A stretch of DNA of 64,000 nucleotides, from IMG/VR virus record IMGVR_UViG_3300044856_000216, positions 1 to 64,000 of that record; one strand, written 5' to 3'. The notes under the pieces are model-generated. The model was given only the letters and a program-made list of their open reading frames with translations, had not been told where the DNA came from and made no database searches. This DNA comes from a virus. Below are positions 30,366 to 32,486 of this stretch, piece by piece; the first letter of the stretch is position 1; each line of letters begins with the position of its first letter. Position numbers and translations under genes: made by a program.

Positions 30366-32486
30366 TTAGATATATTCTCCACTGAATACTTCAGTGTCAA
30401 ATGGAGTAATGCCTTCATTGACATCAAAGATAATATCAGCATCTTCTTTGTTATCTACTCTCAGACCTCTTGCCCTGATATGCAATTCAATCAAATCATA
30501 TAAGTTTGATTTACTCATATTTACCATACTGTAGCATGTTGCAGCCACACCAGATAAATTGCTTTCTACATTATTTCCACCATAATTGCTATGACATCCG
30601 TTTAATGATAAGTTCATATCACACCATATTACTTCTCTGTTTACACAGTCGAAAATTGCAGGAATACAAACTGTGCTTTGTGATGCCAAATCCATCTTCT
30701 GTTCAACTGTCTTTGGTTCATAAATCTCACCAGATTTAACATCTTCCCTACTCATCCATCCGAACATTGCGTGTGGCATATCTGAAAGTTTCTGACCAGT
30801 ATAGTTATAAATCTGATATACAATATATCTCGCACCATACTTGATAACAGAATCAATGTCTACATCGAGGAATTCTGTTACACCATCTCCATCAACAGAG
30901 CCACCATTTGTAATATCTCCTGAATGACAAGCTTTATATTTATCTGAACGAAGATTTGTATACGAAACATGCTCCATGTAGTTCCAATTCTCATCGAAAA
31001 TAGCTGCCGATAAATCAAGATCCACCCTACCATTGCACCATCTGTCGTTGTCATTATCCATATTCGTCCACCAACAAAATGCTCTCAATGCTTTTGTATT
31101 GTCCTTGATTTTTAATTTTGAACCTCTAACAATAGTTTTTAATGCCTTACTTGCACTTCTCTGGCTGAATGGAACAATATAATTTTTGAACTCTTCTGAA
31201 AGATAAACATTCCCAAGAAAATCCTTGCTCTTATAATTCTCAACTAATGCGTTCTCACAGATTTTCACAATTGCGTTACAATACTTTTTATCAATATCTG
31301 ATAATGTATTCTCTATGCAATGACATCTTGCTAAGTTACCTTTTGGAAAGAATACTCTGGATTCTAGCTTATCTGTCCTATGAGCAAAATGTTCTTTCAC
31401 TTGTAATAAAACAGGTGTAGAAACTTCACTTGCAACATCCTTAAATGTATTGACAACTGCATTTTTATCTGTAGCATTTCTTAACAAATGATCAAGTTTT
31501 CTTGCAAGTTCTCCTGGTCTTTTTCTCAAAAGCATAAGAGCTGATTTAAAATCTTCTGTCTCAATAGCCTTGGTTACTTTACCAGCAAATGTTTCTATTT
31601 TAATTCCATTACGAAGTTTATTAAAAGCGGTAATGACTTTACCAAACTGCTCTGTACTATATTCTGATGGATGAAGTCTTTCACCAACACGAAGCCATCT
31701 GTTTTTATATCTCAACATATCTTCTTCGATAGAACCACAATTCTGCAAGAGTTCTAATAATAATCTTCTCTCTTTTCGTTTAAAACTTCTGAATTTTGTA
31801 TTGGTTGCTAAACTAATATCTCCATCTGACATTGCAGTAATCAGTCTCAATACATCGGTAGCCGTTTTGAAAAACTTCTGAATATTCTTTGCAGTTGCTA
31901 ATGGATAATTCTCTAAATATAATTTTCCAATCAATGCTGCATTTTCTTTTAAAGGAATTTCGTCAGGAAATTCAACCTGCATATTCTTAAAAATCCACTC
32001 TAAATCTTCCTTATCTGTCTGTGAGATTGAGGTTTTTGACTGACACAAATTCTTAAAAATATCATAAAGATTTTCCTTTGTACCTAAGTCAATCACTTTT
32101 ACTTTTGTTTTTTCAAATAGTGGCAATCTCTCATTCTTTTCCTCGTAAGGATATAATATACCACCAGACCAATAATGAACGATCGCATTGATAAACAAAT
32201 CAATATAATCAGCTTCCATTACTGATTCAGGAAAATTAGGGTACATAGGTTTATACACAACATCTGCTCCAACCAGTTTTTTCAACATAGGAATTAACTC
32301 TAAATAGAATTTTTGTAAATCTTCCTTAGTTTGTGTCTGAAGTGTTTCAAACAATTCTTTGGAAAATGTATATCCTAATGCTTCTACATTCTTCATAATC
32401 GTAACAATGTACTGATTATTTGGTTCTGTAACATTACCTTTCTCTAAAATCACTTTATTTTTTCTTCGTAATAAAATCTCATTCAT
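30366..32486 (-). CDS. Large protein: ~480-aa helical N-terminal region of unknown family plus a C-terminal TerD-like domain
   Basis: C-terminus RVDLDLSAAIFDE...CHSGDITNGGSVDGDGVTEFLDVDIDSV...YIVYQIYNY matches the TerD pattern DLD.SA...HSGD..TG.G.GD.E.I.VDL......I.F.V.IY. Start set to ATG 32486 (MNEILLRR) behind AAAGGAGAATAAAACT. The track N-terminal extension covers RNA unit D. Confidence 0.6.
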   Translation of the reverse strand: MNEILLRRKNKVILEKGNVTEPNNQYIVTIMKNVEALGYTFSKELFETLQTQTKEDLQKFYLELIPMLKKLVGADVVYKPMYPNFPESVMEADYIDLFINAIVHYWSGGILYPYEEKNERLPLFEKTKVKVIDLGTKENLYDIFKNLCQSKTSISQTDKEDLEWIFKNMQVEFPDEIPLKENAALIGKLYLENYPLATAKNIQKFFKTATDVLRLITAMSDGDISLATNTKFRSFKRKERRLLLELLQNCGSIEEDMLRYKNRWLRVGERLHPSEYSTEQFGKVITAFNKLRNGIKIETFAGKVTKAIETEDFKSALMLLRKRPGELARKLDHLLRNATDKNAVVNTFKDVASEVSTPVLLQVKEHFAHRTDKLESRVFFPKGNLARCHCIENTLSDIDKKYCNAIVKICENALVENYKSKDFLGNVYLSEEFKNYIVPFSQRSASKALKTIVRGSKLKIKDNTKALRAFCWWTNMDNDNDRWCNGRVDLDLSAAIFDENWNYMEHVSYTNLRSDKYKACHSGDITNGGSVDGDGVTEFLDVDIDSVIKYGARYIVYQIYNYTGQKLSDMPHAMFGWMSREDVKSGEIYEPKTVEQKMDLASQSTVCIPAIFDCVNREVIWCDMNLSLNGCHSNYGGNNVESNLSGVAATCYSMVNMSKSNLYDLIELHIRARGLRVDNKEDADIIFDVNEGITPFDTEVFSGEYI

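What the first reader, a model, noticed from the sequence alone, without database searches (positions are those of the whole stretch)
30366..32486. 706-aa protein with a TerD-like C-terminal domain is the only gene enclosed by the RNA modules
The last ~200 aa match the TerD beta-sandwich pattern: VDLDLSAAIF...CHSGDITNGGSVDGDGVTEFLDVDIDSV...YIVYQIYNY. The first ~480 aa are helical-looking and I cannot place them in a family.

The gene has four RNA modules in its 5' leader and four in its 3' trailer. That layout resembles the rsr/Y-RNA arrangement, with a different metal-binding domain (TerD instead of vWA). A TerD-domain ribonucleoprotein would be new. Whether the N-terminal region is a divergent TROVE/HEAT-type ring is an open question.
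Basis: partly seen in the sequence, partly recalled or inferred. Interest (0 to 1): 0.65.

Follow-up and report, generated by a model that had tools for sequence, protein, structure and literature searches.

The report
Y-RNA-like RNAs paired with TerD-domain protein
A phage gene for an uncharacterised 706-residue protein (new helical domain plus a TerD-type beta-sandwich) is flanked by eight copies of a structured small RNA that accompanies this protein family in nearly every genome examined, which points to a widespread, undescribed RNA-protein particle resembling the Ro60/Y-RNA system.

Summary
A 706-aa gene lies on the minus strand at 30366..32486. Four structured RNA modules lie upstream and four downstream on the same strand, and none elsewhere in the 64 kb.

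The C-terminal part has a TerD fold: Foldseek hit to 2qz7 (E 2.5e-5), TerD Pfam hits in 8 of 63 homologs, and a C-terminal profile that hits only TerD structures. The N-terminal ~455 aa are a confidently modelled helical domain with no PDB match. They are not detectably TROVE (hhalign probability 0.2%).

The RNA is a ~65-nt scaffold: P1, a conserved internal loop (GGCUAU/AUUUCC), a covarying P2, a UUCCUUCUA loop and a variable tip. It is not in Rfam. Module 5 carries a permuted tRNA-like insert that hits YrlA.

The pairing is conserved:
- A covariance model finds modules beside the gene in 86 of 89 and 65 of 65 loci. All 441 hits are on the gene's strand.
- The loci span several bacterial phyla and phages down to 24-31% protein identity.
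- In Bacillus and Priestia the RNA is the only conserved neighbour.
- In phages the modules are interleaved with tRNA genes.

Best reading: a Ro60-independent, Y-RNA-like ribonucleoprotein. Binding and function are untested.

The parts
30366..32486 (-). Gene for the 706-aa protein (PHROG 33734; named 'TerD family protein' or 'cytoplasmic protein' in NCBI records of homologs)
   Evidence: ORF and start codon. PHROG 33734, E 2.6e-95. 3961 homologs and 3003 cluster representatives at 50% identity. AF2 model pLDDT 92.3.
31122..32486 (-). N-terminal domain, about aa 1-455. Mostly helical, basic (pI 8.9), no known family. Invariant residues include G73, F85, P86 (YPNFP motif), E181, D211, R214, D223, H272, R329.
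   Evidence: Secondary structure. Invariant columns. pI. No Pfam, PDB-sequence or fold match. Not TROVE by hhalign.
30603..31118 (-). TerD-type beta-sandwich, about aa 457-628, with conserved DxDxS (D489, D491) and HSGD (H521-D524) motifs plus E538 and D541. Acidic.
   Evidence: Foldseek 2qz7_A, E 2.5e-5, TM(target) 0.72. TerD Pfam in 8 of 63 homologs. C-terminal profile hits only 3ibz and 2kxt. Invariant columns.
30369..30602 (-). C-terminal helical tail, about aa 629-706
   Evidence: DSSP of the model shows helices at 640-656, 662-673 and 698-705.
32798..32884 (-). RNA module 1 (5' side of the gene)
   Evidence: CM R1 48.1 bits. RNAfold predicts P1 and P2 de novo.
32708..32787 (-). RNA module 2
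   Evidence: CM R1 61.0 bits. Fold.
32582..32696 (-). RNA module 3, with a long perfect hairpin in the variable tip
   Evidence: CM R1 49.3 bits. Fold -37.1 kcal/mol.
32503..32581 (-). RNA module 4, a variant with a weakened P1 that ends just upstream of the gene's ribosome-binding site. The same variant is conserved in L009, L010 and L013.
   Evidence: CM R1 36.9 bits with filters off. Sequence. Homologous hits L009 2911-2986, L010 2925-2983, L013 2902-2966.
30222..30357 (-). RNA module 5. Same scaffold, with a permuted tRNA-like insert (T-arm, acceptor-like hairpin, D-arm) in the variable tip.
   Evidence: CM R1 43.2 bits. Rfam YrlA RF02553 at 30237-30333, 37.2 bits, E 7.7e-6. Fold. The same insert recurs in other lineages.
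30144..30211 (-). RNA module 6
   Evidence: CM R1 51.2 bits. Fold.
30060..30136 (-). RNA module 7
   Evidence: CM R1 57.2 bits. Fold.
29964..30044 (-). RNA module 8
   Evidence: CM R1 56.3 bits. Fold.
32942..33799 (-). Thg1-like tRNA-His guanylyltransferase gene immediately upstream. A recurrent but not universal neighbour in phages, so a possible functional associate.
   Evidence: PHROG 4717, E 2.4e-82. tblastn finds a Thg1-like gene in 25 of 303 fetched loci, including several distinct lineages (L009, L175, L217, L255).

Best explanation
The gene and the eight flanking modules encode the two components of a conserved ribonucleoprotein that works like Ro60/Y RNA but is built from unrelated parts.

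**RNA.** Each module is a small stable RNA. It has:
- a basal helix P1 ending in two invariant G-C pairs;
- a conserved internal loop (5' CUAU opposite 3' RNUUU);
- a covarying 9-bp helix P2, closed by conserved UCU/AGA pairs;
- an invariant single-stranded UUCCUUCUA at the 5' side of the apical loop;
- a freely variable tip.

Inferred: the protein recognises the invariant scaffold (internal loop plus UUCCUUCUA...UAGA). The basic N-terminal helical domain probably does this, and the acidic TerD sandwich supplies a metal-dependent or regulatory surface.

**Variable tips.** They carry swappable 'effector' parts. The recurrent one is a permuted tRNA mimic of the YrlA type. It would bring the particle to tRNA-handling enzymes or present a tRNA-like decoy.

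**Expression.**
- In bacteria, one or two modules are co-transcribed with the gene in its 5' or 3' UTR.
- In phages the set expands to arrays that flank the gene and are interleaved with tRNA genes. They are presumably released by tRNA-processing nucleases.
- The module next to the start codon (module 4 here) probably also lets the protein repress its own translation.

**Function.** The most likely biological role is RNA surveillance, repair or protection of the translation apparatus during stress or infection. The Thg1-like neighbour and the tRNA-array setting fit this.

**Shown:** anatomy, covariation, conservation of the RNA-protein pairing, the TerD fold, and non-membership in TROVE. **Inferred:** direct binding, which domain binds, processing, autoregulation and the cellular role.
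For: **RNA structure**
- RNAfold finds P1 and P2 de novo in the window's modules.
- On a MAFFT alignment of 65 diverse modules, 94.9% of cells pair against 59% when shuffled. The covariation score is 0.90 against 0.19, and 0.14-0.19 when partners are slid. 12 of 15 pairs show double changes.
- On 143 distinct model-selected hits, 95.0% pair and 14 of 15 pairs show compensatory changes.

**Specificity in the window**
- All 8 modules flank this gene and none lie elsewhere in 64 kb.

**Forward association (gene to RNA)**
- Modules were found in 86 of 89 loci from IMG/VR and GTDB genomes, and in 65 of 65 further viral loci.
- All 441 hits are on the gene's strand and lie in the flanks of the gene, most within a few hundred nt of it.
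- The loci include Paenibacillus, Brevibacillus, Priestia, Niallia, Chloroflexota, Acidobacteriota, Cyanobacteria and Bacteroidota.
- Modules also lie beside homologs of 24-31% identity in the phages XacN1, Weasels2 and LpeD.

**Reverse association (RNA to gene)**
- 93 IMG/VR loci carry real modules. 76 of them carry the gene in the fetched stretch, always on the same strand, mostly 12-370 nt away.

**Only conserved partner**
- In B. thuringiensis and Priestia the gene stands alone among unrelated, differently oriented genes.

**Trans-acting, tRNA-like expression**
- Modules lie 5' in some lineages and 3' in others.
- 28 of 52 viral loci sit inside tRNA arrays.
- Arrays apparently without the gene (L128, L123, L131) are interleaved with tRNA genes a few nt apart.

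**Y-RNA likeness**
- YrlA hits in the window and in L016.
- T-arm then D-arm inserts in at least 10 lineages.

**Protein**
- Rigid two-domain model (pTM 0.90), basic N-domain (pI 8.9) with many conserved Arg/Lys, acidic TerD part.
Against: - No experiment or structure shows that the protein binds the RNA. Adjacency and co-conservation are the only link.
- In most bacterial genomes the modules lie 20-200 nt upstream of the start codon, as a cis-regulatory leader would.
- The TerD family has no known RNA-binding member, and the N-domain has no recognisable RNA-binding fold.
- No promoter or terminator signal above background delimits separate RNA genes in the window.
- My 65-sequence seed set was pre-filtered for complementarity. 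This inflates '% paired' on alignment A3. The conserved UAGA and UUUCC elements were not used in the filter, and the model-derived alignment A4 gives the same picture.
- Loci were chosen through the protein, and several seed contigs recur in the later searches.
- The Thg1 link is confined to a minority of lineages.
Confidence: 0.6

Rival explanations
1. The modules are cis-regulatory elements of the TerD-family gene. They could be a riboswitch-like sensor or an operator where the protein, or another factor, controls the gene's own translation or stability. In this reading they are not trans-acting partner RNAs.
For: - In most bacterial loci one or two modules end 20-200 nt upstream of the start codon on the same strand.
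- Module 4 and its counterparts in L009, L010 and L013 abut the ribosome-binding site.
- The invariant CCUUCU could pair with a Shine-Dalgarno AGGAGG using one G-U pair (my inference from the sequence).
- No separate promoters or terminators were detected.
Against: - In Niallia, Heyndrickxia and many Lachnospiraceae the modules lie only downstream of the stop codon.
- Phage loci carry arrays of modules on both sides of the gene, eight in this window.
- Modules occur interleaved with tRNA genes, at least once with no homolog detected within 1.7 kb upstream or 4.7 kb downstream (L128).
- The variable tip accepts whole tRNA-like domains, which is unlike a ligand pocket.
- The two roles are not exclusive. 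An autoregulatory role for the proximal module is part of the best explanation.
Confidence: 0.17
2. The locus is a conflict system in which repeated RNAs neutralise or are processed by the protein. This could be a type III toxin-antitoxin-like pair or an abortive-infection module. In phages it could be an anti-defence decoy set that soaks up host nucleases aimed at tRNA or rRNA.
For: - Tandem RNA repeats next to a single protein gene, as in ToxIN (established knowledge of type III TA systems).
- Frequent carriage by phages and jumbo phages.
- tRNA-mimic inserts and placement in tRNA arrays.
- The B. thuringiensis copy lies beside an IS3-type transposase.
Against: - No hit to any PADLOC defence model.
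- The repeats are divergent and covarying rather than near-identical, and lie on both sides of the gene.
- Bacterial copies usually have only one or two modules and sit among ordinary metabolic genes.
- No terminator lies between repeats and gene.
- The protein shows no nuclease fold.
Confidence: 0.1
3. The RNAs are ordinary Y RNAs that serve a canonical Ro60 (or another protein) encoded elsewhere, and their position next to the TerD-family gene is incidental.
For: - Module 5 resembles YrlA.
- Only 64 kb of the phage genome is visible, so a Ro60 gene elsewhere cannot be excluded.
- One weak structural match to a TROVE-annotated phage protein.
Against: - The conserved stem differs from the YrlA consensus, and the match is carried by the tRNA-like part (alignment).
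- The adjacency holds across several bacterial phyla and phage lineages with 100% strand concordance.
- None of the ten large window ORFs scanned has a TROVE domain.
- The protein family is not TROVE.
Confidence: 0.03

Closest known systems
Ro60 (Rsr) / Y RNA ribonucleoproteins, especially bacterial and phage YrlA
   Same: - A protein of 500-700 aa, built from a large helical domain plus a C-terminal metal-binding-type domain, encoded next to one to several small RNAs on the same strand.
- The RNAs are modular: a conserved stem formed by the 5' and 3' ends, plus a variable 'effector' part.
- One RNA per locus often carries a permuted tRNA mimic in the order T-arm, acceptor-like hairpin, D-arm.
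- Present in both bacteria and phages (Chen et al. 2014, PMC4201824; phiLo Ro60, PMC12135203).
   Different: - The protein is not TROVE and has no vWA domain. There is no Pfam hit, hhalign probability is 0.2%, and no solved Ro60 appears among the Foldseek matches listed.
- The C-terminal domain is a TerD sandwich.
- The conserved RNA stem (GGCUAU...UUCCUUCUA...UAGA...AUUUCC) is unrelated to the Ro60-binding helix.
- The YrlA model scores only 37 bits against its gathering score of 69.
- Phage versions carry many more modules and are embedded in tRNA arrays.
TerD family (Pfam PF02342; Klebsiella TerD 2kxt, Streptomyces SCO6318 2qz7)
   Same: - Beta-sandwich fold.
- Conserved DxDxS and (H)SGD...E signature that forms the Ca2+ sites in TerD.
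- NCBI names homologs 'TerD family protein'.
   Different: - Canonical TerD proteins are single-domain, about 190 aa, and sit in ter or stress operons.
- Here the domain is the C-terminal third of a 700-aa protein with a novel N-domain. The gene stands alone with RNA partners.
- The second acidic cluster (GDGDDE) is reduced in most family members.
- The window protein itself is below Pfam detection.
NCBIfam NF041916, MXAN_6230/SCO0854 family RING domain-containing protein
   Same: Strong partial match: E 5e-131, with window aa 294-677 aligned to profile positions 383-757 of 842. This is the nearest named protein family and evidently shares the second half of the N-domain and the TerD part.
   Different: - The score of 438 is below the 600-bit cut-off.
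- The best stretch does not reach the first ~380 profile positions, which are extra sequence at the profile's N-terminal end and may hold the RING domain.
- I found no literature on that family.
- Whether its members have the RNA was not tested.
Type III toxin-antitoxin systems (ToxIN, AbiEi-like RNA repeats)
   Same: Tandem structured RNA units encoded beside the protein that is expected to bind them.
   Different: - The repeats are divergent and covarying, lie on both sides of the gene, and number only one or two in bacteria.
- No endoribonuclease fold, no PADLOC hit, no intervening terminator.

Membership tests
TerD domain family (PF02342) | TerD beta-sandwich fold | tested here: met
   AF2 model against PDB: 2qz7_A, E 2.5e-5, probability 1.0, TM(target) 0.72 over 188 columns. 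Several single-domain TerD proteins also match in BFVD.
TerD domain family (PF02342) | Match to the Pfam TerD HMM at or above the gathering score | tested here: inconclusive
   The window protein gives no TerD hit even at E<=1. 8 of 63 homologs hit at E<=0.01, best 1.4e-9. The C-terminal profile hits only TerD PDB chains, at E 0.012 and 0.019.
TerD domain family (PF02342) | Conserved acidic Ca2+-site motifs (DxDxS; GDN-TG-GDGDDE) | tested here: inconclusive
   D489, D491, H521-S-G-D524, E538 and D541 are invariant or nearly so and align to the TerD motifs. The second acidic cluster is shortened in the family consensus. Metal binding itself cannot be tested here.
TerD domain family (PF02342) | Single-domain protein of about 190 aa in a ter/stress operon | tested here: not met
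   The protein is 706 aa with a 455-aa N-domain. The bacterial genes stand alone, and no ter genes are nearby.
Ro60 / TROVE (PF05731 + vWA PF25045) | TROVE domain detectable by sequence profile | tested here: not met
   No TROVE hit for the window protein or any of 63 homologs. hhalign of the family profile against a 38-sequence Ro60/Rsr profile gives probability 0.2%, E 0.28.
Ro60 / TROVE (PF05731 + vWA PF25045) | Ring of HEAT-like repeats resembling solved Ro60 structures | tested here: inconclusive
   No Ro60 entry (1yvp, 2nvo, 9kop, 9nen) appears in the top 50 Foldseek PDB matches for the full model or for the N-domain alone; best N-domain E is 0.29. One BFVD protein annotated as TROVE matches at E 2.8e-5 but with TM 0.25-0.30. 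Model coordinates could not be inspected for ring geometry.
Ro60 / TROVE (PF05731 + vWA PF25045) | C-terminal vWA domain with MIDAS motif | tested here: not met
   The C-terminal domain is a TerD sandwich.
Ro60 / TROVE (PF05731 + vWA PF25045) | Adjacent modular small RNAs including a tRNA mimic | tested here: met
   Eight modules flank the gene and module 5 is YrlA-like. This is a functional resemblance, not evidence of homology.
YrlA RNA (Rfam RF02553) | Score at or above the gathering threshold (69 bits) | tested here: not met
   37.2 bits in the window and 33.8 bits in L016.
YrlA RNA (Rfam RF02553) | Permuted tRNA-like domain (T-arm, acceptor-like hairpin, D-arm) enclosed by a stem | tested here: met
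   cmscan alignment and RNAfold of module 5. The same insert is present in L009, L010, L013, L016, L018, L035, L037, L038, L041 and L072.
YrlA RNA (Rfam RF02553) | Ro60-binding basal stem consensus and adjacency to rsr | tested here: not met
   The basal part of the YrlA model aligns poorly, with gaps. The scaffold consensus here is different. The neighbouring gene is not rsr.
NCBIfam NF041916 (MXAN_6230/SCO0854 RING-domain family) | Whole-protein score at or above 600 bits, including the N-terminal part of the profile | tested here: not met
   438.5 bits. The best stretch covers profile positions 383-757 of 842 only.
PHROG 33734 (unknown function) | Full-length match to the family profile | tested here: met
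   E 2.6e-95, aa 22-701 against profile positions 30-750 of 764.
Type III toxin-antitoxin | Near-identical tandem RNA repeats upstream of an endoribonuclease toxin, separated by a terminator | tested here: not met
   The modules are divergent and covarying and lie on both sides of the gene. No terminator. No PADLOC hit. No nuclease fold.

The most novel reading that the evidence does not exclude
This is a second, Ro60-independent class of Y-RNA-type ribonucleoprotein. A previously unrecognised RNA-binding protein (novel helical domain plus a TerD Ca2+-type sandwich) assembles on a universal ~65-nt RNA scaffold. The scaffold has an invariant UUCCUUCUA loop, which resembles an anti-Shine-Dalgarno or 16S 3'-tail sequence, and interchangeable tips that include tRNA mimics.

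The particle would be widespread in Bacillota (B. cereus group, Paenibacillus, Priestia) and other phyla. Phages would have amplified it inside their tRNA operons to guard, repair or reprogram the translation machinery during infection.
Probability: 0.45. Interest if true: 0.88.

Novelty: new variant of a known kind. Interest (0 to 1): 0.78.

Why it matters
Ro60/Y RNA is the only well-known bacterial and phage system in which a protein is paired with modular, tRNA-mimicking small RNAs encoded beside it. If the inference here holds:

- **The logic evolved, or was re-used, with a different protein fold and a different RNA scaffold.**
- **A large family gains a function.** The family has about 3000 clusters at 50% identity. 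It is present in model and industrial Bacillota and in many jumbo and gut phages. Today it carries only the labels 'TerD family' or 'cytoplasmic protein'.
- **The TerD fold gains an RNA context.**
- **A new, strongly covarying RNA family would join the catalogues.** It is absent from Rfam 15 (4227 families).
- **Phage tRNA arrays would have a new type of element.** This bears on how phages protect translation against tRNA-targeting defences.

The system is small: one gene plus a 65-nt RNA. It occurs in tractable hosts (Priestia megaterium, B. thuringiensis, Paenibacillus) and in cultured phages (XacN1, Weasels2, LpeD), so the hypothesis can be tested directly.

Tried and rejected
**RNA searches**
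- Rfam at gathering thresholds over the whole window: nothing.
- Permissive Rfam on the region and on 12 related loci: only the sub-threshold YrlA hits, tRNAs and unrelated families. The scaffold is therefore not a known Rfam family.
- ARAGORN: no tRNA in the window.

**Protein sequence and DNA searches**
- PDB sequence search with the single protein and with the full-length profile: no hit.
- Megablast of 6 kb against GenBank phages: no match.
- PADLOC: no defence-system model.

**TROVE hypothesis: rejected as homology**
- Tested with Pfam on 63 homologs, with Foldseek on both the full model and the N-domain alone, and with hhalign against a purpose-built Ro60/Rsr alignment.
- A recalled human Ro60 sequence was used only as bait. 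It was verified against PDB 9nen, with one substitution.

**Other checks**
- Promoter and terminator scan: no excess over shuffles.
- Extra domains in longer homologs: only ankyrin repeats, which are uninformative.
- Thg1 as an obligate partner: rejected, since it appears in only a minority of loci.

**Literature**
- Searches for TerD with Y RNA, Ro60 or TROVE, for SCO0854/MXAN_6230, for YrlA and for 'TerD domain' found no description of this pairing.
- One broad search was uninformative.

**Readings rejected**
- CRISPR-like array or REP-type repeats: the units are not identical and they covary as helices.
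Full report
**1. What is at the coordinates**

The window is low-GC (~32%), and its genes run on the minus strand. It carries a phage-type replication module: NrdD with an intein, NAD-dependent ligase, RecD-like helicase, Pol III alpha, RecJ and SSB.

The finding's ORF is on the minus strand at 30366..32486. It starts at an ATG preceded by AAAGGAG and encodes 706 aa. A longer TTG-initiated ORF reaching 32597 is an artefact of ORF calling. Homologs from all lineages start at the MxxNxIxLRRKNK position.

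**2. The protein**

Direct Pfam, PDB-sequence and PADLOC searches return nothing significant. The only library hits are these:
- PHROG 33734, unknown function, E 2.6e-95.
- A sub-threshold but strong partial match to NCBIfam NF041916, 'MXAN_6230/SCO0854 family RING domain-containing protein' (438 bits against a 600-bit cut-off). Window aa 294-677 align to profile positions 383-757 of 842.

The family is large. There were 3961 hits in the word-indexed search and 3003 representatives of 50%-identity clusters, almost all full-length at about 700 aa. NCBI names some members 'TerD family protein' or 'cytoplasmic protein'.

With a 63-sequence alignment, AlphaFold2 gives a confident model (pLDDT 92.3, pTM 0.90). 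It has three parts:
- a mostly helical region, aa 1 to ~455;
- a beta-rich region, aa ~457-628;
- a helical tail.

The only significant PDB match is the TerD homolog SCO6318 (2qz7_A, E 2.5e-5, TM 0.72 on the target). Three further results agree with a TerD assignment:
- Eight of the 63 homologs hit Pfam TerD on their own, best E 1.4e-9.
- A profile of the C-terminal region hits only TerD entries in the PDB (3ibz, 2kxt). It aligns the family's invariant DxDxS and HSGD motifs with the TerD Ca2+-site motifs.
- BFVD matches include single-domain TerD proteins.

The 'TerD-like C-terminal domain' is therefore real, although the window protein alone is below Pfam sensitivity.

The N-domain, modelled alone (pLDDT 89.9), has no PDB match better than E 0.29. 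The weak matches are annexins, CRM1 and TPR proteins, which is generic helical-repeat noise. It is basic (pI 8.9) and the C-terminal part is acidic (pI 4.7).

**3. Is the N-domain a TROVE ring?**

I built a Ro60/Rsr alignment from human Ro60, D. radiodurans Rsr and 36 diverse bacterial TROVE proteins. The human sequence was recalled from memory as bait and verified against PDB 9nen. The Rsr sequence was read from the PDB 2nvo alignment.
- hhalign of the two family profiles gives probability 0.2%, E 0.28.
- No TROVE Pfam hit appears in any homolog.
- No solved Ro60 (1yvp, 2nvo, 9kop, 9nen) appears among the top 50 Foldseek matches.
- The one dissenting signal is a BFVD match to a crAss-like phage protein annotated 'TROVE domain-containing' (E 2.8e-5, 386 columns). 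Its TM of only 0.25-0.30 and rmsd of 12.5 Å fit similarity between helical repeats better than a shared fold.

Membership in TROVE is therefore not supported. Whether the domain forms a ring could not be checked, because model coordinates are not exposed.

**4. The RNA modules**

The flanks contain eight units on the gene's strand. Each begins (N)NNGGCUAU and contains UUCCUUCU.

RNAfold predicts the same architecture for them independently:
- an outer helix P1 ending in two G-C pairs;
- an internal loop (5' CUAU, 3' RNUUU);
- a 9-11-bp helix P2;
- an apical region that starts with UUCCUUCUA, ends with U/UAGA, and encloses a variable insert.

In module 5 the insert is a T-arm, an acceptor-like hairpin closed by a short A-rich loop, and a D-arm. 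This is the permuted order of YrlA, and Rfam's YrlA model matches it at 37.2 bits (E 7.7e-6, below the gathering score of 69).

No Rfam family matches the scaffold itself, in the window or in 12 related loci.

**5. Covariation**

From 101 related loci I extracted 226 modules and aligned 65 diverse short ones with MAFFT. On the P1+P2 structure:
- 94.9% of cells are standard pairs, against 59.0% in shuffles.
- The covariation score is 0.90, against 0.19 in shuffles and 0.14-0.19 with slid partners.
- 12 of 15 pairs show changes on both sides.

Caveat: these 65 modules were pre-filtered for complementarity. However, the conserved 3' elements UAGA and UUUCC were not part of the filter, and they align in at least 90% of sequences. 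An alignment of 143 distinct hits chosen only by the covariance model gives 95.0% paired and 14 of 15 compensatory pairs.

The two terminal G-C pairs of P1, the C-G pair that closes P2, GGCUA, UUCCUUC and UUUCC are nearly invariant.

**6. Is the RNA tied to the protein?**

*Forward test (gene to RNA).* A covariance model (R1) finds the following:
- In the window, only the eight flanking modules: seven with default filters, and module 4 at 36.9 bits with filters off.
- In 89 loci fetched through the protein (IMG/VR plus one genome per GTDB species), 188 hits in 86 loci.
- In 65 further viral loci, 253 hits in 65 loci.
- All 441 hits are on the gene's strand, in the flanks of the gene, most within a few hundred nt of it.

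The bacterial loci include Paenibacillus, Brevibacillus, Priestia megaterium, Niallia, Heyndrickxia, Chloroflexota, Acidobacteriota, Cyanobacteria and Bacteroidota.

Cultured phages with homologs at only 24-31% identity also carry modules next to the gene, with slightly shifted consensus sequences:
- Xanthomonas phage XacN1: three modules upstream.
- Rhodococcus phage Weasels2: modules downstream.
- Lactobacillus phage LpeD: modules upstream.

*Reverse test (RNA to gene).* A 16-base pattern scan of IMG/VR returned 117 loci. A tblastn of the 63 A1 proteins against them found a homolog in 76. The covariance model was then run on the 41 loci without a homolog.
- 76 of the 117 loci carry a homolog in the fetched stretch. 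It is always on the same strand, mostly 12-370 nt away.
- 24 of the 41 have no covariance-model hit and are chance pattern matches.
- 17 of the 41 carry real modules with no gene in the fetched piece. Several are at locus edges or in contigs that have the gene elsewhere.

**7. Context**

In B. thuringiensis and Priestia the gene is a stand-alone unit among unrelated, often convergent genes. The RNA is the only conserved neighbour.

Module position is lineage-specific: 5' in Paenibacillus, Brevibacillus and Priestia, and 3' in Niallia, Heyndrickxia and several Lachnospiraceae.

In phages the locus is typically expanded and placed in the tRNA gene array:
- 28 of 52 viral loci have tRNA genes on the same strand within 1.5 kb, often abutting a module.
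- Weasels2 has five tRNAs upstream.
- In the loci that apparently lack the gene (L128, L123, L131, L139, L124), modules are interleaved with tRNA genes a few nucleotides apart.

This is how stable, processed RNAs are organised, not mRNA leaders.

A Thg1-like tRNA 5'-end repair enzyme lies immediately upstream in the window. It recurs near the locus in several phage lineages but is not universal.

**8. Interpretation**

The protein family and the RNA scaffold have been inherited together across very deep divergence, in both cells and phages. The RNA sits on either side of the gene and is sometimes detached within tRNA arrays. The simplest account is a dedicated protein-RNA partnership, that is, an RNP.

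The RNAs are modular in the way Y RNAs are, with a conserved protein-side stem and a variable effector side. They repeatedly carry the YrlA-type tRNA mimic. Hence 'works like Ro60/Y RNA'. Neither the protein (TROVE and vWA absent) nor the scaffold (different consensus, sub-threshold YrlA score) is a member of those families.

I infer that the basic N-domain binds the invariant internal loop and apical elements. I also infer that the module abutting the ribosome-binding site gives autoregulation.

The invariant CCUUCU could pair with a Shine-Dalgarno sequence, and it resembles the 3' tail of Bacillota 16S rRNA as I recall it. This is a lead only and was not tested.

A purely cis-regulatory reading is weakened by the 3'-located, multi-copy, tRNA-interleaved and tRNA-mimic-bearing modules, but it cannot be excluded for the proximal module. 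A type III TA-like or decoy role is possible and shares the core assumption of protein-RNA binding.

**9. Novelty**

No paper in the searchable library links TerD-domain proteins to Y-like RNAs. SCO0854 and MXAN_6230 are not mentioned at all. The original YrlA survey searched only genomes that encode TROVE proteins (PMC4201824), so it would have missed these RNAs.

I rate this a new variant of a known kind, a Y-RNA-type RNP with a non-homologous protein and scaffold. If binding is confirmed, it may deserve to be called a new RNP class.

Noticed in passing
window 32942-33799 (-): Thg1-like tRNA-His guanylyltransferase (3'-5' polymerase) gene directly upstream of the RNA modules (PHROG 4717, E 2.4e-82). 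It also lies next to the locus in L009 (downstream there), L175, L217 and L255, but is absent from most loci.
   Followed up: partly
L245, L248, L253, L271, L289, L300 and others; L102 (Weasels2) 150-2501: In 28 of 52 viral loci the gene and its modules sit inside the phage tRNA gene array on the same strand. tRNA-Lys(ttt) often directly precedes the first module.
   Followed up: partly
L128 1727-3713; L123 203-2717; L131 1132-1492: Module arrays interleaved with tRNA genes, with no homolog of the protein in the fetched stretch. For L128 this means none within 1.7 kb upstream or 4.7 kb downstream. These may be detached arrays serving a gene elsewhere in the phage genome.
   Followed up: partly
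L247 364-675: A phage-encoded tmRNA (tag ANNEVRMAA) lies in the same tRNA and module cluster upstream of a homolog.
   Followed up: no
L093 337-770: A GOLLD RNA (Rfam RF02032, 171.6 bits) lies just upstream of the module array and the gene in a Saprospiraceae MAG contig.
   Followed up: no
window 32503-32581 (-); L009 2911-2986; L010 2925-2983; L013 2902-2966: The module nearest the start codon is a conserved variant with a degenerate P1 whose 3' end (CCAAUUUCAUU) runs into the A-rich spacer and ribosome-binding site. This suggests a separate cis role.
   Followed up: partly
all modules, e.g. window 32857-32864 (-): The invariant loop sequence (C)UUCCUUCUA can pair with AGGAGG using one G-U pair. 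It resembles the 3' tail of Bacillota 16S rRNA (CCUCCUUUCUA) as I recall it. The resemblance was not tested against any rRNA sequence.
   Followed up: no
P0258, P0260 (homologs of about 1070 aa): Some family members carry an N-terminal extension of about 370 aa made of ankyrin repeats.
   Followed up: partly
window 2642-6004 (-): Anaerobic ribonucleotide reductase NrdD interrupted by an intein with a LAGLIDADG homing endonuclease.
   Followed up: no
window 58323-59552 (-): TnpB/OrfB_IS605-type gene with a Cas12f-like TNB domain. An associated omega RNA was not looked for.
   Followed up: no
window 22072-23625 (-): A 517-aa ORF in the replication module with no Pfam hit.
   Followed up: no
L105 5418-6787: In B. 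thuringiensis CP016588 an IS3-type transposase pair lies about 1.2 kb upstream of the homolog. The 670-nt gap upstream of the gene was not scanned for modules.
   Followed up: no
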